DNA of 64,000 nt from Dehalococcoidia bacterium (GTDB lineage: Bacteria; Chloroflexota; Dehalococcoidia; UBA2979), in contig OZ253555.1 in NCBI GenBank assembly GCA_965262725.1, positions 1,477,256 to 1,541,255 on the forward strand, written 5' to 3'. Shown piece by piece: positions 10,628 to 56,275 of this stretch (positions within the stretch are counted from its first letter, which is position 1; every line of letters starts with the position of its first letter). The position numbers and the translations under genes are program-made. The notes under the pieces were generated by a model. It ran no database searches. It saw only the letters and a list, made by a program, of their open reading frames with translations, and was not told where the DNA came from.

Positions 10628-12225
<1,598 letters not shown>

Positions 12226-22523: not shown

Positions 22524-23293
22524 CCGCCACCACCTCAGACCTCCGCCCGCTGCTCAAGCGCCTCAAGCTCGGCCGTATGCTCGACACCCTGCCCGAGCGC
22601 ATCGCCCTCGCGCGGCGCGACCACCTCGACTACGCGGACTTCCTGCAGATCCTGCTCGTCGACGAGGTGAGCCGCCGCGACCACGGGCGGTTGGAGCTGC
22701 GCCTGCGCCAGGCCGGCTTCGAGCAGCTCTGCCGCCTCGAGGACTTCGACTGGGCGGCCGCCATCCGGCTCGACCGCCGCCTGCTCGACGCCGCCTTCTC
22801 GCTGCACTTCCTCGATCGCCGCGAGCACGTCCTGCTCGTCGGCCCCGTCGGCGTCGGCAAGAGCTTCTTAGCCCAGGCGCTCGGCTACTCAGCCGTCCGC
22901 TCCGGACGCAGCGTCCGCTTCGCCCCGGCCGACCACTACTTCCGCGAGATGGCGCAGGCCCGCGTCGACCACTCGGCCGAGAAGGTCTTCCGAAGCTTCC
23001 TCGCGCCCGACCTGCTCATCCTCGACGACCTCGGGCTCCATCGCCTCAGCGCGCAGCAGTCCATCGACCTCTACGAGCTGGTCATCGGGCGCCACCGCAG
23101 CTCCAGCTTCGTCATCACCTCGAACCGCGCCGTGGAGGAATGGCTGGGTCTCTTCGACGACCCGATCCTCGGCAACAGCGCCCTCGACCGCCTCGCCAAC
23201 GCCAGCTACCAGATCGTGATCGAGGGCGATAGCTACCGCCAGCGGCTCTCGCCGCACCGCGCCCTGCTCGAGGCGCAGACGGGAGGTGATTGA
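22520..23293 (+). CDS. istB: IS21-family ATP-binding helper IstB (DnaC-like AAA+), 257 aa.
   Basis: Walker A LVGPVGVGKSFLA. Walker B LLILDDLG. The start ATG overlaps the istA stop (ATGA at 22520-22523). Confidence 0.9.
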   Translation: MTATTSDLRPLLKRLKLGRMLDTLPERIALARRDHLDYADFLQILLVDEVSRRDHGRLELRLRQAGFEQLCRLEDFDWAAAIRLDRRLLDAAFSLHFLDRREHVLLVGPVGVGKSFLAQALGYSAVRSGRSVRFAPADHYFREMAQARVDHSAEKVFRSFLAPDLLILDDLGLHRLSAQQSIDLYELVIGRHRSSSFVITSNRAVEEWLGLFDDPILGNSALDRLANASYQIVIEGDSYRQRLSPHRALLEAQTGGD

Positions 23294-32208: not shown

Positions 32209-32264
32209 GGGGGCTTCATAAGCCCTTGGTCGCAGGTTCGAATCCTGCCCCTGCTACCAACCTT
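32209..32264 (+). repeat. 3' half of tRNA-Met(CAT) (tRNA positions ~26-76, plus CCA and 5 downstream nt). An att-site-like partial copy of the tRNA gene found at 54441..54516.
   Basis: gggggcttcataagcccttggtcgcaggttcgaatcctgcccctgctaccaacctt matches the tRNA gene at 54441..54516 (opposite orientation) except for one base in the anticodon stem. There is no D-arm or 5' acceptor strand upstream. Confidence 0.8.
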
Positions 32265-32271
32265 CGCGCTC

Positions 32272-32586
32272 TTGCTGGCCGCGTGCGATTCCGGGTCCGG
32301 GGACTCCTCGGCGAGCGCGCCCGCCGCGACTTCCGATGGCCCCACCGGCGAGCTCTCCGCGAACGACGCGACGGAGGCAGAGCTCGTTTCGGCCTTCGAA
32401 GCAGCGGGTATCACCAACGCCAGCCAGTGGGCGCACGAGGTCGAGGAGTACCGCCCCTACCCGGCGGACGACCCCGACTTCGCCGCCGGCGGCCACCTGA
32501 ACGAGCTGAGCTTCCACACCATCGCCTTGTACGCGTTCGAAGAAAATGAATGGCGTGACAGATCGCCAGATCCCCGATCGGAGTAG
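32272..32586 (+). CDS. ComEA-like helix-hairpin-helix lipoprotein fragment. The lipobox LLAAC is present but there is no room for a signal peptide, so it is probably 5'-truncated at the att-like repeat.
   Basis: The reading frame opens inside the tRNA fragment (TFALLLAAC DSGSG...). NDATEAELVSAFEAAGITNASQWAHEVEEYRPY resembles the ComEA HhH DNA-binding region. Only a TTG start is available. Confidence 0.4.
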   Translation: MLAACDSGSGDSSASAPAATSDGPTGELSANDATEAELVSAFEAAGITNASQWAHEVEEYRPYPADDPDFAAGGHLNELSFHTIALYAFEENEWRDRSPDPRSE

Positions 32587-32634
32587 GGACCGAATGGCAC
32601 GTCCGGGGAGTACGCGAGACGACTTCTCGAGACC

Positions 32635-33375
32635 TCAGATTGTTAGTCGCGGGCCCAGCTCCCGAAGCCGGTCGCGGCGGCGGAGGTAGTCCGTCACCGC
32701 TTGCGCGACGATGGCCCAGTACTCGGACGTGTGGCCCCGGACGCGCAGATGGGCGAGTTCGTGAGCGACGATGTAGTCGATGATCGCGGGCGGGGCCATG
32801 ATGACGCGCCAGTTGAAGCGCAGCGTCCCGTCAGGGGAGCAACTCGCCCAGCGCTTGCGCTGACCCCGGATCAGAGTCGCCTTCGGATGGACGCCGAGGA
32901 GGCCTGCCATTCGCTCGATACGGGGCGGGAGCTCCAGGGCGGCGCGTTCGCGGTACCACGCCTCGAATGCGGCGCGTACGGTCACTATCCGCTCTTCGCC
33001 CCGCACGGTCCGCGGCACACCCACATCGAAGTGCCAGTGGCGAAAGCGGATTGCGACCCCATCGTCGTCGGTCGGATGGACGGTCATCGCCACGGACCGC
33101 CCTAGGTACGGGAGCGACTCCCCGCTCACAAACCGCCGAGGCGGCGGAGCGGCAGACGCCGCGCCGTCGTGCCGCATGATCCACCGTGCGCGGCGCCGCA
33201 CGGCCGCTTCGAGATGGTCGGCCGGCGTGTCGGCCGGCGCCGCCACGGTGACCGATCCTGGCTCATCGACTGTGATCTGGATCGTCTTGCGCCGCCTCCG
33301 GCTGCGGACGACCTGGTAGCGGATCCGGGCGTCGCCGAAGTCGACCTCGCCACGCTCTGTCATGCGAGGCGTCAC
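32635..33375 (-). CDS. YgjP-like zinc metallopeptidase (DUF45/WLM-like; HExxH), 246 aa.
   Basis: HELAHL plus a downstream E/H. Overall similarity to UPF0054/YgjP hydrolases, a family often linked to R-M loci. Confidence 0.8.
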   Translation of the reverse strand: MTPRMTERGEVDFGDARIRYQVVRSRRRRKTIQITVDEPGSVTVAAPADTPADHLEAAVRRRARWIMRHDGAASAAPPPRRFVSGESLPYLGRSVAMTVHPTDDDGVAIRFRHWHFDVGVPRTVRGEERIVTVRAAFEAWYRERAALELPPRIERMAGLLGVHPKATLIRGQRKRWASCSPDGTLRFNWRVIMAPPAIIDYIVAHELAHLRVRGHTSEYWAIVAQAVTDYLRRRDRLRELGPRLTI

Positions 33376-33529
33376 CGTGCCACCTCAACGACCTGTCTGA
33401 AGAGCTCGTCGAGATCGCCCTCGTCGTAGCGGTTGGTTCGGCGGAGCAGCCGCTTGATGTCGCGTCGCATCTCCTGCTGGACATCGAGGTGCTCGCGCCA
33501 GTCGATGATCGAGCGATGCTGTTGGCGTG

Positions 33530-34513
33530 TCACGGCAGAATCTCTCTCAGTACAGCCGCTTGTGTTTCGGTCGCCCGCATGTTCTGGAGGTCTCGGCGAA
33601 TCGCGGCTGCAGGGTCCTCCTGATCCGCTTGCAGGACGCGGACGATGGCCTCGAACGGCGCCGAAGCGAGTTCAGCGAGAGCGGGCATGGCCGCGATCTC
33701 CTCGGGGGAGATTCCTCTGCGGTCCCGATACCCAGCGAGGAACCCGCGGGCAAAGACCGGCCGCAGGACTCGAGAGCCTCGTCGCTCACGCCCGAAGCTG
33801 AGAACGCCGCGGACGATGTCTGACGCCCGCGGGCCACGTTCCAGCTTGTCGAAGTCAAGCAACGCGACCATGCCATCGTCCCTGAAGAGTGTGTTTCGCC
33901 CGTGGTAGTCGTTGTGCAGCCAGCCAGTTGGCAGGGCATCGAGGAGCCCGGAAGGCAGTGAGACCGAGATGGCCTCGAGTCGCCGCCGGTAGCGCCGGAA
34001 CTCGGGCTCCAGCGGCGAGCTGCCGAACGCGCGCCGGAGTTCGTCCACCACCTCGCGTGGTGTCGCCACGAAGCGACGCACGTCTTCCTCCACGTGCGAG
34101 GCCTTGGCGGCAGCAACGAAGCGGTCGGCCAGGTCGTGGAACTCGGCGAGGCGACGTCCGGCTTCCCGCGCCTGGTCGAGTCGCGCAAAGTCGAAGTGCT
34201 CGCCGTCCACGAGCTCGAAGAGGGTCCATGGGAACCCTTCTTCGTCCACCACGACAGGGTCGGCGGTCCTCGATTCGATGACGCGCGCGACCGGGAAACC
34301 GAGCGCGTCGAGGTGCTGCTGGAACCGAATCTGGAACCGCACTCGCTCGGGATCGCGATTGCGCCGGTACCTCCGGACCGCGAACGAACGCCCGCGCGAG
34401 TCGACGACACGCAAGTTGTCGTTGCGGGTGCCCGCGTCGAATGCCCCAACGAACCGCGGCTGGTCGAGCGCGTAGCGGGCGAGCACCGAGGTTAGGGCGG
34501 CTGGTGAATCCAC
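33530..34513 (-). CDS. Phosphotransferase-family protein (APH / homoserine kinase II / choline-kinase-like), 327 aa.
   Basis: Catalytic loop HNDYHGRN (cf. HGDxHxxN). DFD metal-binding motif LLDFD. Confidence 0.8.
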   Translation of the reverse strand: MDSPAALTSVLARYALDQPRFVGAFDAGTRNDNLRVVDSRGRSFAVRRYRRNRDPERVRFQIRFQQHLDALGFPVARVIESRTADPVVVDEEGFPWTLFELVDGEHFDFARLDQAREAGRRLAEFHDLADRFVAAAKASHVEEDVRRFVATPREVVDELRRAFGSSPLEPEFRRYRRRLEAISVSLPSGLLDALPTGWLHNDYHGRNTLFRDDGMVALLDFDKLERGPRASDIVRGVLSFGRERRGSRVLRPVFARGFLAGYRDRRGISPEEIAAMPALAELASAPFEAIVRVLQADQEDPAAAIRRDLQNMRATETQAAVLREILP

Positions 34514-34981
34514 GGCTGTTCGGTGTCGCTCCCATCAGGATCGTCTACAGGTTAGGGCTGCCGCGTGCATCGCCCAACGGGAGGTCGTACTCCCGAGAGG
34601 ACCACACCGTGGTGGCGTGGTTCTGGTCGCGTGCGCACCGAGGTGCCGCCTGCAGCAGTCTCAACGGGACGGAACCATCAGGGCTGTCGCCCTCCAACCA
34701 CAGCTCCGTCAAGCCCGTGAGCTCTCCCCGAGAAGGCCGCCCAGGGGCTCCGATCGTGATGCTCCGCCACATATAGCCTCGGTGAGCACGAGGCCGAACT
34801 GTACGGGGCGGAGGCGAGGAGTCTTCAGCGCGCAGTGACCTCGAGCGAGCATTGAGCCGACACCGGCATCGATGGGGACACACACTGAGAAGGCACAGGC
34901 GGTCCTAGGAGTGGTGGACGAGTGTCGATCTGCTCCTGCTCAAGGGGCGTGCGGGGCGATGTCGGCAGCAGAGGGTGAACA

Positions 34982-35419
34982 GTGATGCCCGGTGACCTCG
35001 TCCAGCTAGACCGAGTAGACGTCATGTATGTGCGCGAGTACGGGAAGCCGAGCGAAGAGGCCTTCGCTGAATTGGAAGAGGTGGTGGGGCTGAAAGGAAG
35101 GCGCTTCTACGGGGTCGTCAACGAGGGTGCCGGGCAGTACCGGGCATGCGTCCGACGCCGGAAGCAAGACGACCCCTCCAGTCTTGGCCTCAGAACAGGC
35201 GCTATCGAGGGTGGACTGTACGCATTTGAACGGCTGATCGGCGACTACAAGGCCCTGATCGCCCTCATCGGCCCTACGTTCGAGGGAATGCGCGCCCGGC
35301 ATCCCGTCGACTCGTCAAGGCCCTCTATCGAGTTCTATCGTCGGCACGACGAGATCGTGCTGTACCTTCCCGTTTCTGAATCGGAATCTAGCGGGATAGC
35401 AGGTCAGACTGGGGACTAG
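34982..35419 (+). CDS. GyrI-like small-molecule-binding domain protein, 145 aa.
   Basis: FYGVVNEGAGQYRACV...GLYAFERLIGDYKALIALIGPTFEGMRARHPVDSSRPSIEFY follows the GyrI-like/SbmC effector-domain pattern. Confidence 0.65.
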   Translation: MMPGDLVQLDRVDVMYVREYGKPSEEAFAELEEVVGLKGRRFYGVVNEGAGQYRACVRRRKQDDPSSLGLRTGAIEGGLYAFERLIGDYKALIALIGPTFEGMRARHPVDSSRPSIEFYRRHDEIVLYLPVSESESSGIAGQTGD

Positions 35420-35548
35420 TGGCCGCCTGTGTGCGGGCTCGAGCGGAACACCAAGCAGCGCCGCACATCCACGAGGCCGGCAGCGGCGTGAGTCACCGCA
35501 AGCCGCGTTCAGCAGCCACAGCGACGCCTATGCGCGGGTACTGAACCC

Positions 35549-35897
35549 GGAGCCGCTCGGTGTGTAAGGATTCTCCGTGTGAACGTGAGTCCCCCGCCCG
35601 CCGGGCTGTCTCGACGAGTCGCGAGGCTCATGGGCTCGGCGGTCGAGTCCGGTTGTCCGGCCGCGGGTGGGTACACCCCTGCCGAGCGTTGGTCTCTGAC
35701 CCTTGCGGACGGGCGGCGTGTCTTCGCCAAGACCGGCGCAGACACACCGCAGTCTGCGGTCGCCAGCTGGCTGCGTCGCGAACACCAGGCCTACCGAGAC
35801 ATCTCCGCACCCTTCATGCCGGCGCTGCTTGGATGGGACGACGACGGTCGTCACCCCTTGCTCCTCCTGGAGGAGCTCAGTCACGGGAAATGGCCCC
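35549..35897 (+). repeat. Copy A of a ~350-bp inverted repeat (upstream region plus first ~106 codons of the 35579 phosphotransferase gene).
   Basis: ~95% identical to the reverse complement of 40597..40946. The track ORFs 40572..40916(-) and 40302..40886(+) reproduce the sense and antisense translations of 35579..36505(+) and 35528..36199(-) almost residue for residue. Confidence 0.8.
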
Positions 35898-36505
35898 CTC
35901 CATGGAGTGCAGAGCAGATTGCCGCGGTCCGATCCACCGTGGAGGACGTTGCGCGGACGCGACCACCGGTGTGGGCTGAGGACATCGAGGAACGAGAGCG
36001 AGGGCACCTCTCCGGGTGGCTCCGAGTTCGGGAGGACCCCGCCCCCTTCCTCAGCCTGGGGCTCAGCGACGAACGGTGGCTGCGCACGTGTCTCCCAGCC
36101 CTCATCGAGTCGGCCGAGTCGGCACAACTCGATGGCGGCTCGCTCGTTCACTTCGACGTGCGCAGCGACAACCTCTGCTTCGTGAACGACGATGTCCACC
36201 GACGCGTGACGCTCGTCGACTGGAACTGGTGCGGACGCGGGAGTCCGTTGCTCGACCTCATGTCATGGCTCCCGAGCCTGCATTCCGAGGGAGGACCAGC
36301 CCCGTGGGACATGGTCGAGGAATCCAGGGGTTTCGCAGCGCTGCTCAGTGGGTACTTCGCGGCACAAGCCGGGCTGCCACCGACCGGCAGCGGCACACGG
36401 GGCCGACAGTTGCAGCTGGCCTGCCTCCGCAGCGCTCTTCCGTGGGCAATTCGAGAACTTCGGTTACCGGAACCACCTATCGAGCGATCATCGGTCCCTG
36501 ACTAG
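35579..36505 (+). CDS. Phosphotransferase-family protein (aminoglycoside/antibiotic-kinase-like), 308 aa. Its 5' ~320 bp is duplicated in inverted orientation at 40597..40946.
   Basis: HFDVRSDNLCF (catalytic loop). DWNWCGRGSPLLD (DxD-type metal site). Confidence 0.8.
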   Translation: MNVSPPPAGLSRRVARLMGSAVESGCPAAGGYTPAERWSLTLADGRRVFAKTGADTPQSAVASWLRREHQAYRDISAPFMPALLGWDDDGRHPLLLLEELSHGKWPPPWSAEQIAAVRSTVEDVARTRPPVWAEDIEERERGHLSGWLRVREDPAPFLSLGLSDERWLRTCLPALIESAESAQLDGGSLVHFDVRSDNLCFVNDDVHRRVTLVDWNWCGRGSPLLDLMSWLPSLHSEGGPAPWDMVEESRGFAALLSGYFAAQAGLPPTGSGTRGRQLQLACLRSALPWAIRELRLPEPPIERSSVPD

Positions 36506-36584
36506 GAATGGTGCGGGTGGGAATGATGCTTACATCTGGCCCCACTTTGATCCTCTGATCTGGCCCCACCCCCGGGGACCGGGA

Positions 36585-37367
36585 TCAGGTCGTTGGGGCA
36601 CCTCCTCTCGGGGAGGTCGAGGCCCGGAGCCGGTAGGACTCGGTGCCGGTCTCGATGATATGGGCACGGTAGGTGAGGCGGTCAACGACGGCCGCGGCGA
36701 GACGAGGGTCGGTGAAGATGCGGCCCCACTCGGAGAACGGGGAGTTGGAGGCGACGGCGACCGATGCCCGTTCCTCGCGCTCGGTCAGGATCTGGAACAG
36801 CATTTCGGCACCGCGCGGGTCGAGGTGGACGTACCCGAACTCATCCAGGCAGAGCAGGTCGAGGCGGCCGTAGCGGGCGACGAGGCGTGAGAGCGCGCGA
36901 TCATCCGACGCTTCGGCCAGTTCATTCACCAGGGCGGCCGTGGTCATGTACCGCACGCGCAGCCCCAGGTGGCAGGCGGCCATGCCGAGGCCGATGAGCA
37001 GGTGTGACTTCCCGGTGCCGCTGTCACCGAGCAGGACGACGGGCTCGCCCCTTTCGACCCAGTCGCAGCGCTCCAGCGTGGCGAGCGCCGGCGCGTCGAC
37101 TGTCGGCGCCGCCTCGAGGTCGAAGTCGGCGAGGTACTTGAAACGCGGGAACCGCGCCTCGACGATACGGCGCTGACGGCGCCGCTCCTCACGGTCATCG
37201 CGTTCGGCTCCCAGCACTTCGGCGAGATAGCCCAGATGGGTGATCCGGTCTCGGACCGCGGCTTCGGCGAGCGGGAGCGCCTGCTTCCTGACGGTGGGGA
37301 GACGGAGCTCGCGGCAGATCGCCTCGATTGTCAGCTCCGCGGCCTGGTCGGTGAGGGGTGCTGTCAT
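36585..37367 (-). CDS. istB: IS21-family IstB helper ATPase, 260 aa.
   Basis: Walker A LLGDSGTGKSHLL. Walker B LLCLDEFG. ATG at 37367 follows RBS caggaggcac. The track ORF start at 37526 adds 53 improbable codons. Confidence 0.85.
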   Translation of the reverse strand: MTAPLTDQAAELTIEAICRELRLPTVRKQALPLAEAAVRDRITHLGYLAEVLGAERDDREERRRQRRIVEARFPRFKYLADFDLEAAPTVDAPALATLERCDWVERGEPVVLLGDSGTGKSHLLIGLGMAACHLGLRVRYMTTAALVNELAEASDDRALSRLVARYGRLDLLCLDEFGYVHLDPRGAEMLFQILTEREERASVAVASNSPFSEWGRIFTDPRLAAAVVDRLTYRAHIIETGTESYRLRASTSPRGGAPTT

Positions 37368-37383
37368 CGGGTGCCTCCTGTGG

Positions 37384-39018
37384 TCAGCGTGCCGTCGACA
37401 CCGCAGCGGTGACGGCGGTTGTGGTGGTGTGCGACGCGTTCTCGGCAGACCGCGGAGCGCGGGAGCGCCCGCCCGGCGACGTGCCGGGCCATCGGGAATC
37501 ACCCGAGAGCAGCGCATCGTAGCCATCGAGGAGCGGGGCAGGTCGGTCGTAGCGCTCCAGGTGCGGTCTCTCGACGGCGGCGTCTGGTGGCCTGCGGTCG
37601 GCGAGACGGCGCGCCTCGATGGCGACCAGTTCGGGGTTCACCGACTGGATCCTGTTGACCGTCCCGAGCGCGGCGTGCACCGCCGTGAAGGGAAGATGGC
37701 GATGCAGGAGCAGGACCTCGATGTACGCCTGCGTGCCCGCGCGGTCGCCGAGCTTGCGGCGGGCGCGGTCCCAGAAGCGCTGATGCTCGGCTGTGACGTG
37801 TCCCTTCGCACGCGCCTGCTGGAGCGCCACCGAGCCCGGGACCGCCCCGGGCTTGCGCGCGAGCACCTCCAGATAGTGGTCGAGCAGCAGGACCTCTGCT
37901 CCGGTGCGGGCGCTGCGCTCGTGGTGGGCGACTTCACGCCCCTCGGCCCACACGGTCAGGCTGTTCCCGGACAGCCGCACGTCCAGCTTCCGGCCTGCAT
38001 AGGCCGCCGGGACCGAGTAGCGGGAGCTACGCACGGCGATGCGCGCCTTGCGGTCGACCTTCGCGCGCAGCGGGATTGACGGGTCGAAGCGCTCCGCCGG
38101 AAGCGGACGCAGCGAGGCCTTCTCGTTCTCTCCCATCTCGCCGACGGTGGCGAGGCGGCTCTCGATGTGCCGGGCGTCGTCGGTGCGGTCCGCCTCCCGC
38201 ACTCGTTCGTTCAGCTCGCCGAGGGTCGCCACCTTCGGGACCGGCACGAAGTGCCGCCGGCGGAAGCGGCCGACCTCGCCCTCCACACCGCCCTTCTCGT
38301 GCGCGCCCTCGATGCCGGGCTCACAGAAGAAGCTGTCGAAGCCGTAATGCGAGCGGAGCGCGATGAAGCGCTCGGTCTGCAGGCGCTCGCGTCCCTGCAG
38401 CACGGTGGTGACGGCCGCCGTCAGATTGTCGTAGCGGATGCGCCGCGGCACTCCGCCGAGCCGCTCGAAGGCGACCACGTGCCCCTCGAGCAGAGACTCC
38501 TGGCCCTCGCCGACGAAGCAGACGTGCGCCGCCCGCCCCGAATGCGAGAGCCGCATCACGAACATCGCCAGCCGGGTCTCGACGCCCTCCAGCCACACCG
38601 TCACCGTGCCGAAGTCGACCTCCGCCTCCTCGCCGGGAGGATGGACCTGCGGGATCGTCACAACCGCGCGCCCGCCCTGGATCTCGCGACGCAGGCGCGC
38701 GACGCAGGCGCGGACCGTGGGCTCGGCCACCGTCGCCCCGTGTTCGTCGACGAGGCGCTCCCAGATGCGCCGGGCCGTGTGCCGCTGCTTGCGCGGCGCG
38801 CTGAGGTCGTCCACGAGCCAGCCCCGGATGACCGAGACGTACGGCCCGAGCTTCGGGGCCACGCGGGTCGCCTGCTTGCGTTCCGGGGGTATCGCCGACC
38901 CAAGAGCCTGCCGCACCGTGCGCCGGTGCACGCCATGCCGGCGTCCCAGCTCATGGATCGACAGCTCCTCCTCCCTCGCCATCCGTCGGATAGACTCGAA
39001 CAGCTCCACTCTCGACAC
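37384..39018 (-). CDS. istA: IS21-family IstA transposase, 544 aa.
   Basis: N-terminal HTH (LSIHELGRRHGVHRRTVRQAL), DDE integrase core, IstA length. Confidence 0.9.
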   Translation of the reverse strand: MSRVELFESIRRMAREEELSIHELGRRHGVHRRTVRQALGSAIPPERKQATRVAPKLGPYVSVIRGWLVDDLSAPRKQRHTARRIWERLVDEHGATVAEPTVRACVARLRREIQGGRAVVTIPQVHPPGEEAEVDFGTVTVWLEGVETRLAMFVMRLSHSGRAAHVCFVGEGQESLLEGHVVAFERLGGVPRRIRYDNLTAAVTTVLQGRERLQTERFIALRSHYGFDSFFCEPGIEGAHEKGGVEGEVGRFRRRHFVPVPKVATLGELNERVREADRTDDARHIESRLATVGEMGENEKASLRPLPAERFDPSIPLRAKVDRKARIAVRSSRYSVPAAYAGRKLDVRLSGNSLTVWAEGREVAHHERSARTGAEVLLLDHYLEVLARKPGAVPGSVALQQARAKGHVTAEHQRFWDRARRKLGDRAGTQAYIEVLLLHRHLPFTAVHAALGTVNRIQSVNPELVAIEARRLADRRPPDAAVERPHLERYDRPAPLLDGYDALLSGDSRWPGTSPGGRSRAPRSAENASHTTTTAVTAAVSTAR

Positions 39019-39144
39019 ACTCCTCTTCCCTCGCTCCGGGAGTCATGCAGTCACCCGAGCGTAGGTCCTGGATGGGTCGGGGGTGGTGTCCCCATGTTCT
39101 TTGTCAAGGGCCAGCGCCACTGATCCGGGATGGCCGGCGCAGCG

Positions 39145-40361
39145 TCAGGCAGCCACCGACCCGTGACGAGGAGCCTCCTCGGCGCGGTACGGTTCGCGCG
39201 AGCGCAGCATGGCCAGGATGACGTCGCAGCGACGACGCGCGAGGCAGATGACGGCTGCGGTGTGTTTCTTTCCCTCGGCCCGCTTGCGGTCGTAGAACGC
39301 CCGCGAGACGGGGTCGCGCAGCGAGGCGAAGGCGGAGAGGTACATCGCGTTCTTGAGCCGGTGATTCCCGCGGCGGCTCCGCGTCTGCCCCCGGATGCTG
39401 CTGCCGGACTGGCGGGTGACCGGGGCAAGGCCGGCGTAGCTGGCCAGCCTCGATCCGTTCGCGAAGCGGGAGATGTCACCGATCTCGGCGAGCATCCGCG
39501 CTCCCGTCCTCGGCCCGATCCCCGGCAGGGAGCCGAGGATGGGGCCGAAAGGGTGGGCCTCGAAGAGCTCCCCGATCTCCGCGCCGAGCCGCTCCCGCCG
39601 CTGCTGCGTGCGATCCAGCTCGGTCGCGACCTCGGCGATCACCCGACCCATCGCGACCGAGCCGGGTACGACCACGGTCTGGGCGCCGAGGGCCCCGGTG
39701 ACGGCCTCGGTGAGCGTCTTCGCGAGGCGCGGCGAGCGCTTCCGGAGCGTCCGCGCGATGCGGCCGCGACCCGCCGTGGCCAGCGCCTGCGGTGTCGGGT
39801 AGCGGGCGAGCAGGTCCCGTGCCCCCGCATTGTGGAGCCTGGGGCCCAGTACGCGCTCCAGGGCCGGGGAGAGACCGGTGACGGCGTCGCGCAGCCGGTT
39901 CGTGAGCCGCGTGGCATCGGCGGCGAGGTCGGTGTCGTAGCCGTTGAGAACGCGCAGCTGCTCCAGGAGTTCGTCGTCGCCGGCGTCGAGCCAGTGCACC
40001 TGGTGGCGCCGGGTGCGGCCGGTGTCGGCCAGCACGAACGCATCGCGGCGGTCGGTCTTGGACTCACCCGGGTAGAGGTCGGCGGCACGGCGCATGACCA
40101 GCCCCGGCAGTATGCCACCGGCACGCCGCGGCGGGCGGCGACGGCGAGCACGAGCCGGGCCAGCGAGCCGGGCTGGTCGACGACCAGTGCCGGGGAGCCG
40201 AAGGACTCCGCGCGAGCGAGGAGCGCCTCGATGTCGGCCTCGTCGTTCGCGACGGCGACGGCGAACAGCGGCGCGCCTGCCGCGTCCAGCACATCGGCGA
40301 AGTGCTCTGTCTTGCCGATGTCGAGGCCGATCCACACGGTGGTTTCGTCGGGCGTACCCAC
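39145..40361 (-). pseudogene. IS110-family transposase, frameshifted (N-terminal DEDD domain in one frame, C-terminal domain in another).
   Basis: Frame A (40361..~40100): MGTPDETTVWIGLDIGKTEHFADVLDAAG...RRGVPVAY. Frame B (~40100..39145): LPGLVMRRAADLYPGESKTDRRDAFVLAD...ILGSLPGIGPRTGARMLAEIGDISRF. The two frames are joined by a -1/+1 shift near 40100. Confidence 0.8.
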
Positions 40362-40596
40362 TGCAACTCCTTCCGGGGTTTCCCCCTCATTCCAGCAGGA
40401 AGGCCGCAGGCGCGCTCGCCGTCATCCACCTTACAAATCAGCGATTGGCTCGCATGTCCCCATCAGAGGTTCACGCGCCGAACAGTGCCGGTGGCAACAC
40501 CACCCGAGCCGTCCGTTGCGGCAGGGCCATTTGAGCCATGCCGGCACTGCTGGGCTTCCCGGGCTCAGAGGTTACTGAGCTCGTTTGAAGAAGGTA

Positions 40597-40946
40597 AGGG
40601 GCCATTTCCCGTGACTGAGGTCCTCCAGGAGGAGCAAGGGGTGACGACCGTCGTCGTCCCATCCAAGCAGCTCCGGCATGAAGGGTGCGGAGATGTCTCG
40701 GTAGGCCTGGTGTTCGCGACGCAGCCAGCCGGCGACCGCAGACTGTGGTGTGTCTGCGCCGGTCTTGGCGAAGACACGCCGCCCGTCCGCAAGGGTGAGA
40801 GACCAACGCTCGGCAGGGGTGTACCCACCCGCGGCCGGACAACCCGACTCGACCGCCGAGCCCATGAGCCTCGCGACTCGTCGTGACAGCCCGGCGGGCG
40901 GGGAAGTCACATTCACACCGAGAATCCTACAGGTGCACCGGCGACC
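40597..40946 (-). repeat. Copy B of the ~350-bp inverted repeat (inverted duplicate of the phosphotransferase gene 5' end).
   Basis: See copy A. It diverges from copy A immediately after the shared ...gggaaatggcccc. Confidence 0.8.
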
Positions 40947-41247
40947 GGGAATGGGAGCGGGGTGCGCACTCTTCGCGAAAGGGCGTCACGGGCCACGGAG
41001 GTTACGGGCCGGTCCACCGATCGTCCTCCACGGGATGCTTGATTGCGAGAACTGCGGGAACGCGCCGCATCCCGCCCGCAATCACGCACTGTCCGCTCTT
41101 CCGCGAGTGCTCGGTTGGCGCGGCGGGACCACGGCGAGGCGGTTGACGCCGCATCCTTGACGCGATGGCGGCCCGTCGGCATGTTCGTTCCCGGGGTCGG
41201 CGGGCTCGGCCTTCGAGCCGACGTGAGCGGATGTCGGAGGCGCAGCG

Positions 41248-42012
41248 ATGACGTCCTACGTCGACCGCCTCGCCCGCCGCAGCCGCGCGGTTGGCAGCTT
41301 CGTCTGCGTCGGCCTCGACCCGCCCGGCGACCTGCCTGTCGAGGAGGTCGCGCGCCGCAACCGCGCGCTGATCGAGGCGACCGCGCCCTACGCCGCCTGC
41401 TTCAAGCCCAACCTCGCCTTCTACGAGCAGTTCGGCATCCCCGGCCTGCGCGCCCTCGAAGCGACTCTCGAAGCTATCCCCGGCGGCATCCCTGTCATTT
41501 GCGATGCCAAGCGCGGCGACATGAACAACAGCGCCGCCGCCTACGCCCGCGCCCTCTTCGAGGTCTGGGGCTTCGACGCCGCCACGGTGAATCCGTACCA
41601 GGGGCGCGACGCCGTCGCGCCCTTCCTCGCCTACGAGGACCGGGGCGTTTACCTCCTCTGCCGCACCTCGAATCCCGGGTCCGCCACCATCCAGAACGCC
41701 ACCCTCGCAGGCGGCCTGCCGCTGTATGAACGCCTCGCGGCCGAGATGCCCTCGTGGGGCGCGAACGTCGGCCTCGTCGTCGGCGCGACGGCGCCGACCG
41801 AGCTCGCCCGGGTGCGCGCGCTCGCTCCGGAGACCACGATCCTCGTGCCGGGCGTCGGCGCGCAGGGAGGCGACCCGGCCGAAGTGGTGGCCGCGGCGGG
41901 ACGGGCGCCCGGCCTCATGGTGGTGAGCGCCTCCCGCAGCATCGCGAGCGCGCCGGACCCGGCGGCCGCGGCGCGAGACCTGCGCGACGCCCTCAACGCC
42001 CCCGGTCGGTGA
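41248..42012 (+). CDS. pyrF: Orotidine 5'-phosphate decarboxylase (type 2 PyrF), 254 aa.
   Basis: FVCVGLDP. Catalytic DAKRGD. Overall OMP decarboxylase similarity. Confidence 0.9.
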   Translation: MTSYVDRLARRSRAVGSFVCVGLDPPGDLPVEEVARRNRALIEATAPYAACFKPNLAFYEQFGIPGLRALEATLEAIPGGIPVICDAKRGDMNNSAAAYARALFEVWGFDAATVNPYQGRDAVAPFLAYEDRGVYLLCRTSNPGSATIQNATLAGGLPLYERLAAEMPSWGANVGLVVGATAPTELARVRALAPETTILVPGVGAQGGDPAEVVAAAGRAPGLMVVSASRSIASAPDPAAAARDLRDALNAPGR

Positions 42013-42146
42013 ACGAGGGGGTGTCGCCGTCGGCCGGGCGTGCCACATGTGCCGCCACGCAGCCTATATCCACTGCCTATGTTCGAGGGCCCGACGAACG
42101 GCATCCCAGAAGGCCGCTCCGAGGCTGACTACAGGAGGTATCGAAG

Positions 42147-42674
42147 GTGAGTGAGCACTTGAACCGTGAGATCAAGGCGTACTGTCCCGACTTTGCGCCC
42201 GTCCGGCAGCTGCTCCGCGATGGTGGGGCGAGGTTGGTCGCGGTCAAGGAACAGGTGGACCACTACTATCACCTGCCCGCGATCGGAACCGAGGAGGGAA
42301 CACGGCGACTCAAGCTTCGTATCGAAGGCGAGAAGAGGCAGCTCATCTTCTACCGTGACCATCAGGAAACAAATGCCCGGATTAGTCGAGTCCACATCTG
42401 GGAGGTACACGATCCTCAGGTCACGGATGTACTAGACATCGCGTTGGGCAATCGAGTCACGGTCCGTAAGCAACGCGAACTGTGGTCCACGGACAACGTC
42501 GAATTCAACCTGGACACGGTGGAGAGCGTCGGGCAAGTCTTCGAGTTGGAGGCACAGGCGGAGGATGGTCGTGACATCGCAGCCCAGGTGGAGGACTGGC
42601 GCCGCCGCCTGGGACCCTACCTTGGTTCTTACATAACTGGTTCGAATGAAGATTTGGTTCTGACTTCCAGATAG
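42147..42674 (+). CDS. CYTH-domain protein (class IV adenylate cyclase / triphosphate tunnel metalloenzyme-like), 175 aa.
   Basis: N-terminal EIKAYCPDFAPVRQLL, then alternating acidic/basic beta-strand pattern (RLKLRIEGEKRQLIFYRD...) typical of CyaB/CYTH. Confidence 0.7.
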   Translation: MSEHLNREIKAYCPDFAPVRQLLRDGGARLVAVKEQVDHYYHLPAIGTEEGTRRLKLRIEGEKRQLIFYRDHQETNARISRVHIWEVHDPQVTDVLDIALGNRVTVRKQRELWSTDNVEFNLDTVESVGQVFELEAQAEDGRDIAAQVEDWRRRLGPYLGSYITGSNEDLVLTSR

Positions 42675-43029
42675 GTGACACGCCGAGAAGACTAGGTAGA
42701 CGGGGCGTACCGGTTGTCCCGGGGTCCGAGCAGCACGAGGAGTGGCAGGTGGCGGACGAGCCAACGCGCGCTGGATGGCTGGCGCGGCGACTCACGCGCA
42801 TGCCGGCGGTGCCGTCGCGGTTAGCATCGTCGACACTCGGCGAGGGATCCTAGTCACAGCGCAGGTGTAGGGCGGAGCTGGGGCCGGGCATGATGCCTGA
42901 CGAGGACAGTGTGAAGGCAGGCATCGAAGTCGCCCCGCAGCAGATTGGCATGCCGATCGGCGTGGTGCTCGGGAAGCAGGCGATCCGAGGCGGCGGAATC
43001 CACATCGGCGCCGTCCTCGGAGCACGGCG

Positions 43030-44405: not shown

Positions 44406-45020
44406 CGGGGGGAGTTTGTCGGATGCCGCCGAGGGAGGAACGCACACCCAGTGTCCTAGCCGGCGCTGCATATTCGACGCTCGGTAACGACGAAGACGGA
44501 GTCGCGGTTGTTCTTGAGCAACTGGTGCAGGAGGTCGGGTAGTGCATAGGGGACGGGCGTCGGAGGTCACCAGTTCCACGTAACGCTGCGGTCAATCGCT
44601 GAGTACGCTGGGAGCTTGCCGAGAAGTCGGGGGCGGGTCACTTGTCTAAGCTCGAATCCAGAGCGCCAGGCTAACTGGCGAGTAGGCAGGAGGTGGAAGT
44701 CCTCTATGGCAAAGAGCTAGCCACTCATGTCATTCCGCGAGCCGTGCGCGGGTCGTCGCGAGGCGGCTTGTGAAGCGTCGGCAGCGGGGTGTGCGGGCGG
44801 GGCTAATGAGCATCGAAAGGGCCATTTGGGGTGCCGAGGCTCTTGGATTGGTCGAAGGCAATACCGGCGACGGCGCTACTGGCGAGTCGTGGTCGGGCCC
44901 CACGGTGTCGAAGACCCCATGCACGCACACACGTCTATCGCCGGGACTTGGGAGAGCTGCGCGTTGTCCCGACGAGTCGTACGCCGGGACCGCGTCGGGA
45001 AGGGACGTAAACCGTAGCCG

Positions 45021-46800: not shown

Positions 46801-47730
46801 CTCACCGATACCTTCATCAACAATCGCGAGTTCTTCGAGGTGCCCTTTTGAACCCGATTTACGAGTCGGGCTACGTGCGTCCGGAAGTCGAAGGGGTGGT
46901 GACGTGATGACGTGACCGGTCCGGAGACATGCTCGTTGCTGCCAGCCGGTGAGAGTCCGGCACGGGTAACTGTCAGGAGGCCCGTTAGCAGGTCGGCGGC
47001 GTGGACGGGAAACGGTCTGCGTCGAAGCCCGACGTCAAGAGCCCTATGAGGGGGAGCAAACGTGCGGTCCGCAGCATGACGCGAAGTCTGCCGCGCCGTG
47101 AGACTCGCCTGTCTATTGACAGGACCAAGGAGGAGCCGAGCCCGGGTGGTCAGGGCGAAGGCCATGGACGAGGTGAAGATCCTGGAATGCAGCCTCAAGA
47201 AACCTCCCGGCGTATGGGACGTGGAACGTACGGAAGGTAGCGACGGGAACCGGAGAAGCCCTCCCCGGCCCGGCACCCTGTGAGAGGGCGTCGGAGCGAG
47301 GCGTCCTATAACCGGTCAGAGCCGGGAAGTGGACAGCCAGCCGGAAGGGTGGCGGAGGGGGTCGTAGTACCGCTGGAGCCGGACGGACAACATAACCGCC
47401 GGTGATGGGAAGGACCCCTACTTTGTCCGTGCATGTTGCTGGGGGTGTGGACTGGTGAGTGCCCCTCGGGGCTAGCAACCACTTGGTAGGGTTCGAGGCT
47501 CTCCGCACATGCTGTACCGGCTGGCCAAGGCACGACCCACGTTGTGGGGAGCGCTGCATGCCATCTGGTGAAGGGCATCGGTGAGCCGGATGAGGGAGAA
47601 CCTCACGTCCGGTTCGATGTGGCAGGGGCTGGAGACGGACGCTGCTATGGCCGTGGAGTTGGGCACCACCGGGAAACCGGCTTGGAACTGATGCGCCACC
47701 GCCTACGGCTCGCACCGCGCCAGCCCCTGA

Positions 47731-54115: not shown

Positions 54116-54440
54116 GACGCTTCTCCGCGAAGGAGGGGCTTCCGGCAGCATCGGAGCTGTCACCGTCGCGTGGCCCTCGGGATGTGCCGCGTCGCGTGAT
54201 GTCGAGGCGATGGTGTATGACGCTGCGGTCGTGCGAAGAGGGGTGCGCGAGGTTGTATCTGGCGCTCTCATTCCTAGGCTCTGACTGCGGTGCATCTCGC
54301 TACGGCATGCGCATCGGGATACGTCTGCGCCGTGCGCGAATCGCGGGAGTTGATCCCCATTTGATCCCCAACTGATCAGGTACGTGATCGCCACGTGAGG
54401 TTTCACAGAACATAATTACTAGTTAATTCTAGGTAAAGGT

Positions 54441-54516
54441 TGGTAGCAGGGGCAGGATTCGAACCTGCGACCAAGGGCTTATGAATCCCCTGCTCTACCA
54501 CTGAGCTACCCTGCCG
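54441..54516 (-). tRNA. tRNA-Met (anticodon CAT), 76 nt with encoded CCA.
   Basis: The reverse complement reads ggcagggtagctcagtggtagagcaggggattcataagcccttggtcgcaggttcgaatcctgcccctgctacca. It has a D-arm gctc/gagc, a TTCATAA anticodon loop and T-arm gcagg-ttcgaat-cctgc. There is an A-G mismatch at 31:39 of the anticodon stem. Confidence 0.9.
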
Positions 54517-54818
54517 GGCTCTCGGGAGGCGCCGGGGCGCCGTCCGCGAGCCGAGTCTACACGCGGCGCGGCTCGGTCGCTCCCATCCAGCCGACCTGCT
54601 CCTTCTCTCTACGTCGCGGGCCGCCGGGACGGGAGCCCGGTCCGTCGATGGGTCTCTAAGTCGGGAGCAATCGCGAGCCGAGACGCCCGCCCGCGTGCCG
54701 GTGTGCCCGGCTCCAGATGTCGAGGGAGGGCGGCTCGCGCGTGTCCAGCGTAGGACGGGCGGGCTGTATCATCTGGTCGTCGACGCGCTAGGCGGCGCTC
54801 GGCGAAGGAGGTGAGGGA

Positions 54819-56273: not shown

Positions 56274-56275
56274 CC

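What the first reader, a model, noticed from the sequence alone, without database searches (positions are those of the whole stretch)
35549..40946. About 350-bp inverted repeat bracketing a 4.7-kb IS21 plus IS110 block; an invertible / recombinogenic segment
The promoter and first ~106 codons of the 35579 phosphotransferase gene are duplicated in inverted orientation at 40597-40946 (~95% identity). The copies enclose the rest of the gene, an IS21-family element and a frameshifted IS110. Homologous recombination between the copies would invert the segment and swap which copy drives the full-length gene. It may also record an IS-mediated duplication/inversion next to pyrF.
Basis: seen in the sequence. 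Interest (0 to 1): 0.55.

Follow-up and report, generated by a model that had tools for sequence, protein, structure and literature searches.

The report
IS110 rearrangement scar, truncated kinase copy
The inverted repeat is real, but it is most likely a scar rather than a switch: one arm is the start of an intact kinase-like gene, and the other is a stump of an older second copy of that gene, cut exactly where an RNA-guided IS110 insertion sequence found a look-alike of its normal target.

Summary
The repeat exists: arms 35567-35897 (+) and 40598-40928 (-), 331 nt, 11 mismatches, and it is the only repeat of 60 nt or more in the window. It covers 12 nt upstream of the GTG plus 106 codons of an APH-family gene, so it holds no promoter. 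Between the arms lie the rest of the gene, an IS21 (36518-39086) lacking the outer 68 nt of its left end, and an IS110 (39087-40597) with a 1-nt frameshift.

The IS110 carries a bridge-RNA-like left end. In related copies its guide segments track the flanks, and this lineage usually sits in terminal repeats of IS21-family elements. Here the right end sits on that canonical IS21 half-site (6/6). The left end abuts the APH site AAATGGCCCC, which matches the left guide 9/9 and occurs only at the two arm edges. The flanks therefore come from two loci, which indicates a rearrangement at the IS110 ends.

Outgroup-polarised substitutions show arm B split from the A lineage before a sister strain did, so it is not a fresh copy. 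An inverted tRNA-Met att duplicate supports an inversion nearby.

I found no invertase, no homogenisation of the arms and no isoforms. A metagenome mis-join across the IS110 remains possible.

The parts
35567..35897 (+). Arm A: 12 nt upstream plus codons 1-106 of the intact APH-family gene
   Evidence: It is identical to sister contig L001 apart from one base (35638) and differences at the first bases (35567-35572) that look like low-coverage contig noise. Its upstream flank is syntenic with relatives L002-L004.
35579..36505 (+). APH-family phosphotransferase gene (308 aa), intact copy A, substrate unknown
   Evidence: Pfam PF01636 at 26.3 bits. There is no specific NCBIfam equivalog. An identical protein is on L001. 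A 97% orthologue, P0001, sits in the same context in L002-L004.
35888..35897 (+). Intact pseudo-target in copy A: AAATGGCC-CC, followed by CTCC. It matches the IS110 left guide 9/9 but the right guide only 4/6.
   Evidence: The 10-mer occurs only here and at 40598-40607 (expected 0.03).
36518..39086 (-). IS21-family element. The right end is intact, with two 22-nt terminal repeats at 36524-36545 and 36548-36569. The left end lacks its outer 68 nt. Maximal ORFs: istB 36585-37526, istA 37384-39018.
   Evidence: Complete copies in L001 and L050 define the ends GGGAATGATGC...GCATCATTCCC and a 7-bp target duplication in L050.
39087..40597 (-). IS110-family element (1511 bp). The left end is at 40597 and the right end at 39087. 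The transposase is frameshifted by a 1-nt deletion at about 40110.
   Evidence: The ends are defined against copies in L005, L006, L052 and L053 at 96-97% identity. Pfam DEDD_Tnp_IS110 plus Transposase_20. NCBIfam 'IS110 family RNA-guided transposase' at 216.7 bits on the frame-corrected protein.
40362..40597 (-). 236-nt non-coding left end of the IS110, a putative bridge RNA. Left target guide 40524-40532 (AAATGGCCC), right target guide 40500-40505 (GGGTGG), left donor guide 40455-40463 (ATGGGGACA), right donor guide 40429-40434 (GTAAGG).
   Evidence: The guides match the flanks and the element's own ends. Among five copies, variation in columns 40-200 is confined to the two target-guide spots.
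40598..40928 (-). Arm B: a 5' stump (12 nt plus 106 codons) of a second, older copy or allele of the APH gene, ending at the IS110 left end. The truncated ORF 40572-40916 reads 8 codons into the IS110.
40929..41131 (.). About 200 nt of unmatched sequence between arm B and the conserved pyrF upstream region. The first ~20-30 nt next to arm B weakly resemble the native APH upstream.
41248..42012 (+). pyrF (orotidine-5'-phosphate decarboxylase), divergent from arm B. In relatives a HAD hydrolase gene occupies arm B's position.
32210..32264 (+). 55-nt copy (54/55) of the 3' half of tRNA-Met, an att-like island border. It is inverted relative to the tRNA-Met gene at 54441-54515 (-).

Best explanation
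The inverted repeat is a by-product of a rearrangement at the ends of an RNA-guided IS110 element. It is not a dedicated invertible switch.

What is shown:
- Arm A is the start of an intact APH-family gene in its ancestral context.
- Arm B is the first 106 codons of a second, older copy or allele of that gene.
- Arm B ends precisely at the IS110 left end, on the only sequence in the window that matches the element's left target guide (AAATGGCC-CC).
- The IS110 right end sits on the element's canonical target, the inner terminal repeat of the neighbouring IS21 (CC-ACCC).
- The outer 68 nt of that IS21 end are missing.
- The IS110 therefore has a left flank from one locus and a right flank from another.

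What is inferred:
- An IS110 resident in the IS21 end (or in the APH copy) exchanged one of its junctions with the other site.
- This happened in one of two ways. The first is recombinase/bridge-RNA 'half-site' or 'direct-transfer' recombination of the left junction to a new left target. The second is ordinary homologous recombination between two IS110 copies.
- The exchange inverted or deleted the intervening DNA, separated the stump from the 3' part of gene copy B, and brought the stump to lie inverted 4.7 kb from copy A.

The repeat could still support rare RecA-dependent inversion, but nothing indicates that this is used.
For: 1. The repeat is real and unique in the window.
2. The IS110 ends are defined by four other copies. 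Homology stops at 40597 and 39087.
3. The left end shows bridge-RNA logic. The 9-nt segment at LE 66-74 equals the copy's own left flank 9/9 in the window and L005, and 7-8/9 in L006, L052 and L053. The segment at LE 93-98 is the reverse complement of the copy's own right flank 6/6 in 4 of 5 copies, with the variable dinucleotide tracking it (CC, TC, TT, CC; own match 2,2,1,2,2 against 0.75 for mismatched pairings). ATGGGGACA and GTAAGG match the element's own right and left ends.
4. Across five copies the LE is invariant from column 40 to 200 except at those two target-guide spots.
5. This architecture is the published one: a 9-base LTG equal to the LT top strand, a 4-base RTG plus core, and the bRNA in the LE of IS110-group elements (PMC11208160).
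6. Other copies (L053, L005, the L001 stub) sit in terminal repeats of IS21-family ends. The uninterrupted IS21 repeat has 4 C where the interrupted one has 4+2, which gives a CC core duplication.
7. AAATGGCCCC occurs only at 35888-35897 and 40598-40607 (expected 0.03).
8. Arm B is old. Six substitutions are shared by A, B and L001. Three are shared by A and L001 only, with B keeping the outgroup base. Eight are private to B. By contrast, the IS21 is 99.9% identical to a copy in a ~90%-identity genome.
9. The tRNA-Met gene and its 55-nt att copy are inverted relative to each other. A block adjacent to tRNA-Met (54187-56852) is inverted relative to the APH block when compared with the IS-free relative L003.
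10. Published biochemistry allows such events. A half-match of core plus one arm suffices for recombination (bioRxiv 10.64898/2026.08.31.748434). Transfer of the LT-RD junction to a new LT is ~10x more active than the follow-up transfer of the other end (bioRxiv 10.1101/2025.10.25.684509).
Against: - The reciprocal junction (IS21 outer repeat joined to APH codon 107 onward) is not in the window and was not found in JGI metagenomes. Inversion versus deletion, and recombinase versus homologous recombination, are therefore unresolved.
- No full-length copy B, or any APH gene next to pyrF, was found in any relative. The origin of the second copy is unknown.
- The left-guide/left-flank match is weaker in three metagenome copies, at 5-7 of 9.
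- No Rfam family matches the LE. The predicted fold has no covariation support.
- This copy's transposase is frameshifted, so any recombinase step needs either an earlier date or an enzyme supplied in trans.
- The outer edge of arm B (40928/40929) is unexplained.
- The window appears to come from a metagenome assembly. I saw no reads.
Confidence: 0.72

Rival explanations
1. Assembly artefact. Two real loci were mis-joined by the metagenome assembler through the 1.5-kb multi-copy IS110. The first locus is APH-A-IS21::IS110. The second is pyrF-APH-B::IS110, in the same genome or in a co-occurring strain about 3% diverged. On this reading the arms are real but are not 4.7 kb apart in any cell.
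For: - The switch between the two contexts lies within a repeated element whose protein cluster has 236 members.
- Arm B differs from arm A by about 3%, a strain-level distance.
- Related contigs come from long-read metagenome assemblies, some at 2-3x coverage.
- The window's exact proteins, other than APH-A, are not on record elsewhere.
Against: - Both IS110 junctions are biologically well formed.
- The two halves of the window both belong to the neighbourhood seen contiguously in L003, namely the tRNA-Met block and the APH block.
- The inverted att copies are what a true inversion predicts.
- Long reads normally span 1.5 kb.
- This model also needs an APH-B::IS110 allele, so the biology of the junction is unchanged.
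Confidence: 0.13
2. Functional invertible segment. Recombination between the arms flips the 4.7-kb block and alternates which upstream region drives the full-length kinase gene, giving phase variation.
For: - The arms are inverted, 331 nt long and 97% identical, with perfect blocks up to 57 nt. That is enough for RecA-dependent exchange.
- The arms include the ribosome-binding region and the start codon. Inversion would therefore give an in-frame gene with 5 amino-acid changes under a different upstream region.
Against: - There is no invertase or tyrosine/serine recombinase in or beside the segment. The only recombinases are IS21 and a frameshifted IS110.
- The promoter is not within the repeat, and none was detected.
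- The arms carry 11 scattered fixed differences with a clean phylogenetic pattern and no conversion tracts.
- Relatives with the same gene have no second arm.
- The contents of the segment are two insertion sequences.
Confidence: 0.07
3. Recent inverted duplication of copy A itself, by fold-back or template switching or a replicative IS event. On this reading arm B is a fresh copy of arm A.
For: - The arms are each other's closest relatives compared with L002-L004, with six shared derived sites.
- One-strand transfer by IS110 followed by replication could in principle create an inverted duplication (my inference).
Against: - At three sites B keeps the outgroup base while A and the separate strain L001 share the derived base. 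B also has 8 private changes. B therefore branched off before A and L001 separated.
- The IS21 and IS110 insertions look far younger than that. The IS21 copies are 99.9% identical across genomes of ~90% identity.
Confidence: 0.03

Closest known systems
IS110-group bridge-RNA elements (IS621; Durrant et al. 2024, PMC11208160; Hiraizumi et al. 2024, PMC11208158)
   Same: - A DEDD/RuvC-like plus Tnp-domain recombinase.
- A long non-coding left end (236 nt) against a short right end (58 nt).
- A 9-nt left target guide identical to the left flank.
- A short right target guide complementary to the right flank.
- Donor guides that match the element's own ends.
- A duplicated 2-nt core.
   Different: - The core is CC, not CT.
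- The host is a Tepidiformaceae (Chloroflexota) MAG.
- The natural targets are IS21-family terminal repeats rather than REP sequences.
- No Rfam model matches.
- RNA expression and RNA-protein binding were not tested.
- This copy has hybrid flanks and a dead transposase.
[quoted passage not shown]
   Same: A member of the IS110/IS1111 superfamily that specialises in inserting into the terminal repeats of another transposable element, which disables that element's end.
   Different: - The target here is the multiple terminal repeats of IS21-family elements.
- The element belongs to the IS110 group (guide RNA in the left end, no subterminal inverted repeats noticed), not the IS1111 group.
'Half-match' and 'direct-transfer' reactions of IS110 recombinases (bioRxiv 10.64898/2026.08.31.748434; bioRxiv 10.1101/2025.10.25.684509)
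   Same: The window element has the configuration expected after transfer of the LT-RD junction to a new left target that matches the left guide. The LD-RT junction stays on the old target. The APH site is a one-arm match, with LT 9/9 and RT 4/6.
   Different: - Those reactions were shown in vitro or in E. coli with IS621 and CazIS110-1.
- Here the configuration is only a static genomic arrangement.
- Homologous recombination between two IS110 copies would produce the same arrangement.
Inversions or deletions by homologous recombination between IS copies (general bacterial genome plasticity)
   Same: A single IS carries flanks from two different insertion sites, and orientation markers across it are inverted (att copies, syntenic block).
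   Different: The second IS110 copy and the reciprocal junction were not observed.
Programmed invertible DNA switches (fimS/FimBE, hin/hix, invertons)
   Same: Inverted repeats flank a segment next to a gene start.
   Different: - Those use short repeats (about 9-30 bp) and a dedicated adjacent invertase.
- They carry a promoter or alternative gene ends inside the invertible segment.
- None of that is present here.

Membership tests
IS110 family (IS110 group) bridge-RNA insertion sequence | Recombinase with an N-terminal DEDD RuvC-like domain and a C-terminal Tnp (Transposase_20) domain | tested here: met
   Pfam PF01548 plus PF02371 across two frames. The frame-corrected protein hits NCBIfam NF033542 'IS110 family RNA-guided transposase' at 216.7 bits against a cutoff of 140. 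In this copy the ORF is broken by a 1-nt deletion.
IS110 family (IS110 group) bridge-RNA insertion sequence | A long non-coding left end upstream of the recombinase gene and a short right end; no terminal inverted repeats | tested here: met
   The LE is 236 nt and the RE is 58 nt. The ends TTACCTTC... and ...GGGGACA are not inverted repeats.
IS110 family (IS110 group) bridge-RNA insertion sequence | Target-binding guides in the non-coding end that match the flanking target and covary with it between copies | tested here: met
   RTG against own right flank: 6/6 in 4 of 5 copies, with a covarying dinucleotide. LTG against own left flank: 9, 7, 9, 7, 8 of 9 in close copies and 5-7 of 9 in three metagenome copies. 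Variation among copies is confined to the guide positions.
IS110 family (IS110 group) bridge-RNA insertion sequence | Donor-binding guides that match the element's own left and right ends | tested here: met
   ATGGGGACA (LE 135-143) equals the last 9 nt of the RE. GTAAGG (LE 164-169) is the reverse complement of CC+TTAC, the core plus the LE start.
IS110 family (IS110 group) bridge-RNA insertion sequence | Short core duplicated at both junctions of a simple insertion, with both flanks contiguous in the empty site | tested here: not met
   The core CC is duplicated relative to the intact IS21 repeat. However, the left and right flanks of this copy are not contiguous in any empty site: the left is APH and the right is IS21. 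Copies L005 and L053 do have contiguous flanks. The element is a family member, but its present position is not a simple insertion.
IS110 family (IS110 group) bridge-RNA insertion sequence | The non-coding RNA is expressed, folds into two internal loops and binds the recombinase | not testable with these tools
   The fold z-score is -2.67. The consensus fold has no compensatory changes because the copies are 96-97% identical. There is no Rfam hit.
IS21 family | istA (transposase) followed by istB (AAA+ helper), multiple terminal repeats at both ends, and a 4-8 bp target duplication | tested here: met
   NCBIfam NF033546 at 239.7 bits and NF038214 at 248.5 bits. There are two 22-nt repeats at the right end. 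Complete copies in L001 and L050 show two repeats at the left end, and L050 has a 7-bp duplication GAAGTAT. The window copy lacks the outer 68 nt of the left end.
Programmed invertible switch (inverton / phase-variable promoter) | A dedicated invertase gene in or next to the segment | tested here: not met
   Only IS21 and IS110 genes lie inside. The neighbours are a GyrI-like ORF, an APH paralogue and pyrF.
Programmed invertible switch (inverton / phase-variable promoter) | Both orientations present in the population or in related genomes | not testable with these tools
   No reads were available. No related contig shows the alternative orientation.
Programmed invertible switch (inverton / phase-variable promoter) | A promoter or alternative gene modules carried so that inversion changes expression | tested here: inconclusive
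   Only 12 nt upstream of the start codon are shared, and no sigma-70-like promoter was found on either side. The scan covers only one promoter type.
APH / phosphotransferase enzyme family (PF01636) | A kinase-like fold domain above the Pfam gathering score | tested here: met
   26.3 bits against a cutoff of 23.2 for copy A. There are 3030 homologues at E<=1e-10, mostly unnamed or called 'aminoglycoside phosphotransferase family protein'. The substrate is unknown, and there is no NCBIfam equivalog.

The most novel reading that the evidence does not exclude
The window preserves a natural fossil of one-ended, bridge-RNA-guided recombination. The left (LT-RD) junction of an IS110 resident in an IS21 terminal repeat was transferred to a chromosomal half-site that matches only the left guide. 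The right junction never followed. The result was a chromosomal inversion that truncated a gene and left a hybrid-flanked element. This would be in-genome evidence that the 'half-match' and 'direct-transfer' activities, so far seen only in vitro and in E. coli, reshape genomes in nature. It would also show an IS110 lineage that lives by parasitising the ends of IS21 elements.
Probability: 0.3. Interest if true: 0.55.

Novelty: new member of a known kind. Interest (0 to 1): 0.33.

Why it matters
For the genome, the result is mostly housekeeping. The repeat marks a rearrangement breakpoint in a very IS-rich Tepidiformaceae chromosome and should not be annotated as a phase-variation switch.

The more useful by-product is the IS110 itself.
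- It is an uncharacterised bridge-RNA element from Chloroflexota.
- Its guide positions visibly vary between near-identical copies.
- It specialises in the terminal repeats of IS21-family elements.
- In this window it shows flanks from two loci, each perfectly matched to one guide.

If long reads and the reciprocal junction confirm a recombinase-mediated exchange, this would be a natural example of the off-target, half-site chemistry. That chemistry is currently of concern for bridge-recombinase genome editing.

Tried and rejected
- Recent duplication of arm A. Rejected by outgroup-polarised substitutions.
- The 20 nt next to arm B as a third fragment from an unrelated gene, suggested by a 31-nt match to L001:7115-7145. 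Rejected, because four other IS110 copies show those 20 nt are the element's own left end. The L001 site is an IS21-like end carrying a 20-nt IS110 stub.
- The 125-nt gap just upstream of arm A as part of the duplication event. Rejected, because L001 has the same gap.
- L050 as an inversion isoform of this locus. Rejected. It is a ~90%-identity genome with the same IS21 inserted elsewhere, in a HAD gene upstream of pyrF.
- A search for an APH gene next to pyrF in relatives found none.
- A search for the origin of 40929-41131 found no match in any fetched locus.
- Exact-protein look-ups for pyrF, the arm B ORF and the upstream APH paralogue found nothing on record.
- Rfam on the IS110 left end gave no hit, even at E<=1.
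- A metagenome scan for the predicted reciprocal junction gave 0 hits.
- Promoter and terminator scans of both upstream regions found nothing.
- One script used the wrong register for the right guide. It was corrected.
- I did not run structure prediction or fold search, because the proteins are well assigned by sequence.

Full report
OBSERVATION

A 331-nt inverted repeat is present, with arms at 35567-35897 (+) and 40598-40928 (-), 4700 nt apart. It has 11 mismatches (96.7% identity), and the longest perfect block is 57 nt. It is the only repeat of 60 nt or more in the whole window.

The arms begin 12 nt upstream of the GTG start of a 308-aa APH-family ORF (35579-36505; Pfam PF01636, 26.3 bits) and end after codon 106. 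Upstream of that point the two copies are ~64-78% alike for 20-30 nt and then unrelated. The promoter is therefore not part of the repeat, and no sigma-70-like promoter was detected on either side.

Between the arms lie:
- the rest of the gene;
- an IS21-family element on the minus strand (istA, istB; NCBIfam 239.7 and 248.5 bits);
- an IS110-family element on the minus strand, whose transposase is split over two frames.

pyrF follows at 41248-42012.

ORGANISM AND RELATIVES

pyrF relatives place the window in Tepidiformaceae (Chloroflexota, Dehalococcoidia).

Contig L001 carries an identical APH protein followed by the same IS21, this time complete. Window 35387-39086 equals L001 1-3702 at 99.8%.

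Loci L002-L004 carry a 97% orthologue. The IS-free L003 shows the ancestral order: tRNA-Met block, small variable island, YgjP, APH paralogue (-), 142-aa gene (+), APH (+), HAD hydrolase (+).

Window 32549-36505 is collinear with L003 6615-10876, so arm A and its gene are in the native context.

Arm B is not in a native context. In relatives the position divergent from pyrF is occupied by a HAD hydrolase gene. Homology to those pyrF loci starts only at about window 41132. Window 40929-41131 matches nothing fetched.

EXACT ELEMENT BOUNDARIES

Complete IS21 copies in L001 and L050 define the ends GGGAATGATGC...GCATCATTCCC. Each end has two terminal repeats containing TGGCCCCAC, and L050 has a 7-bp target duplication. 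The window IS21 is therefore 36518-39086 and lacks the outer 68 nt of its left end.

Four other copies of the IS110 (L005, L006, L052, L053; 96-97% identical) match the window from 40597 to 39087 and no further. So:
- the IS110 is 1511 bp;
- its left end TTACCTTCTTCAAACGAGC... abuts arm B directly;
- its right end ...GAACATGGGGACA abuts the inner left terminal repeat of IS21.

The transposase frameshift is a 1-nt deletion at about 40110 in a non-homopolymer context, relative to three intact copies.

THE IS110 IS A BRIDGE-RNA ELEMENT THAT TARGETS IS21 ENDS

The 236-nt non-coding left end contains four guide-like segments:
- AAATGGCCC (LE 66-74), identical to the 9 nt of left flank;
- GGGTGG (LE 93-98), the reverse complement of the right flank CCACCC;
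- ATGGGGACA (LE 135-143), the element's own right end;
- GTAAGG (LE 164-169), the reverse complement of core CC plus the left-end start TTAC.

Across five copies the LE is invariant from column 40 to 200 except at the two target-guide spots. Those spots track each copy's flanks:
- right guide against own right flank: 6, 6, 4, 6, 6 of 6, with variable dinucleotides CC, TC, (CT), TT, CC;
- left guide against own left flank: 9, 7, 9, 7, 8 of 9;
- three further metagenome copies: 5-7 of 9.

This is the published architecture of IS110-group bridge RNAs: a nine-base LTG equal to the top strand of the left target, a four-base RTG plus core, and the RNA in the LE (PMC11208160).

The L053 and L005 insertions and a 20-nt stub in L001 all lie in terminal repeats of IS21-family ends. 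The interrupted IS21 repeat shows a CC core duplication. This is analogous to IS4321/IS5075, which target Tn21 terminal repeats (PMC219399, as cited in PMC11187229).

Two limits apply. No Rfam family matches the LE. The predicted fold lacks covariation support because the copies are too similar. I therefore claim the guide logic, not a validated structure.

THE KEY ANOMALY

In the window copy the two flanks come from different loci.
- The right flank is the canonical IS21 half-site (6/6 to the right guide).
- The left flank should be the outer part of the IS21 end (GAATTGGCC-CC, 8/9). It is instead APH codon ~103-106 (GGGAAATGGCC-CC, 9/9).

The 10-mer AAATGGCCCC occurs only twice in the window, at the inner edge of each arm (expected 0.03). 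In copy A the site is intact and is followed by CTCC, which matches the right guide only 4/6. It is thus a one-arm 'half-match'. In relatives L003 and L004 the site reads AGATGGCCCC.

The inner boundary of the repeat is therefore set by IS110 target recognition, and the element's present position cannot be a simple insertion.

AGE OF ARM B

The arm substitutions were polarised with L002-L004 as outgroups:
- six are shared by A, B and L001;
- three are shared by A and L001 only, with B keeping the outgroup base;
- eight are private to B. By my reading of codon positions, these are four synonymous, three non-synonymous and one upstream.

Arm B therefore branched off before the window and L001 lineages separated. 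It is not a recent copy of A, and there are no conversion patches.

By contrast, the IS21 is 99.9% identical to the copy in L050, a genome only ~90% identical in pyrF. This implies IS21 arrived recently. I infer that a second copy or allele of the gene existed long before the IS events, and that the IS110-associated event merely truncated and repositioned it.

INDEPENDENT SIGN OF AN INVERSION

Window 32210-32264 (+) is a 54/55 copy of the 3' half of tRNA-Met (gene at 54441-54515, minus strand). Such att duplicates are normally direct repeats; here they are inverted.

The block next to tRNA-Met (54187-56852) is also inverted relative to the APH block when compared with L003. An odd number of inversion breakpoints must lie between 32.3 and 54.4 kb, and the hybrid-flanked IS110 is the obvious candidate.

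The region is otherwise a mosaic of mobile DNA:
- group II introns at 44696-44917 and 46943-47079;
- IS4/5-like and IS630-like transposases to the right;
- a 32-kb defence/mobile island to the left, with an ArdC-like gene, a type I R-M system, a McrB-like gene, a second IS21 and a 1707-aa helicase.

MECHANISM

Shown: the anatomy above.

Inferred: an exchange occurred at an IS110 end between the IS21 site and the APH-B site. Two routes give the same product.

(a) Recombinase-mediated.
- Published work shows that a half-match (core plus one arm) suffices for recombination (bioRxiv 10.64898/2026.08.31.748434).
- It also shows that the LT-RD junction can be transferred directly to a new left target. 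This needs only the target-binding loop and is ~10x more active than the subsequent transfer of the LD-RT junction (bioRxiv 10.1101/2025.10.25.684509).
- The window has exactly an nLT-RD junction on a perfectly matched new LT, with an untouched LD-RT junction.

(b) Homologous recombination between two IS110 copies, one in APH-B and one in the IS21 end.

With the sites inverted, the outcome is an inversion whose reciprocal junction lies outside the window. With the sites direct, the outcome is a deletion. I cannot discriminate between these. The predicted reciprocal junction is absent from the window and from JGI metagenomes.

RIVALS

- A mis-join across the multi-copy IS110 in a strain-mixed metagenome assembly (confidence ~0.13). 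This would change the spacing of the arms but not the biology of the junction.
- A functional invertible switch (~0.07). It lacks an invertase, a promoter in the repeat, homogenised arms and any observed isoform.
- A recent fold-back duplication (~0.03). It is contradicted.

VERDICT

The 'invertible switch' reading is not supported. The 'IS-mediated rearrangement' reading is supported and sharpened: it is an IS110 bridge-RNA half-site junction.

This is a new member of known kinds, both as an IS110 bridge-RNA element and as an IS-mediated rearrangement scar. It is of modest interest, mainly as a possible natural example of half-site bridge recombination.

Noticed in passing
window 32210-32264 (+) and 54436-54515 (-): A 55-nt copy (54/55) of the 3' half of tRNA-Met lies at the right border of a ~32-kb defence/mobile island. 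It is inverted relative to the intact tRNA-Met gene 22 kb away, whereas att duplicates are normally direct.
   Followed up: partly
L001:7101-7145: An IS21-like terminal repeat (GGGTGTGACAGGGTGAAATGGCCCC) is followed by only the first 20 nt of this IS110's left end and then unrelated sequence. This is a solo stub at a site that matches the window copy's left guide perfectly. How it was truncated is unexplained.
   Followed up: partly
L007:755-2500: [quoted passage not shown]
   Followed up: no
L003:9447-9586 and 10919-11058; also L001:4544-4685: In the IS-free relative the APH gene is bracketed by inverted ~142-nt repeats that are 98% alike (MITE-like). The window lacks them. This hints that the APH gene may sit in a mobilisable cassette, which could explain a second copy.
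   Followed up: no
window 35566/35567 versus L003:9813-9937: A 125-nt indel lies immediately upstream of the APH start. It is present in L002-L004 and absent in the window and L001. Its edge coincides within 1-2 nt with the outer edge of the repeat, so three different upstream sequences all join at AGGATTCTC. The reason for this hotspot is unknown.
   Followed up: partly
L050:6499-9124 versus window 36518-39086: The same IS21 (99.9% identical over the shared part) is present, complete and with a 7-bp target duplication, in a genome only ~90% identical in pyrF. There it is inserted in the HAD gene upstream of pyrF. This suggests recent horizontal spread of this IS21.
   Followed up: partly
L001:1135-3760: The complete IS21 in L001 has no matching target duplication (flanks TGCGGGT versus ACCGGGA), and its left flank is a group II intron RT fragment. 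L001 is therefore itself a product of recombination at an IS21.
   Followed up: partly
window 41132-42716: pyrF-CYTH is conserved with relatives, but its usual neighbours (HAD hydrolase, AddAB) are missing. There is another rearrangement breakpoint at about 41112-41131.
   Followed up: partly
window 44696-44917 and 46943-47079 (+): There are two group II intron domain 1-4 matches (Rfam RF02005 at 170 bits, RF02003 at 103 bits), among IS4/5-like and IS630-like transposases.
   Followed up: no
window 590-31686: A defence/mobile island contains an ArdC-like anti-restriction protein, type I R-M genes (HsdR/S/M, with an IS in between), a McrB-like AAA_5 protein, a second unrelated IS21-family element (20943-23293) and a 1707-aa DEAD/MZB helicase.
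   Followed up: no
window 33530-34513 (-): A second, distantly related APH-family gene (327 aa, Pfam 99 bits, weak homoserine-kinase-like hits) lies two genes upstream of copy A. It is conserved in the same position in relatives.
   Followed up: no
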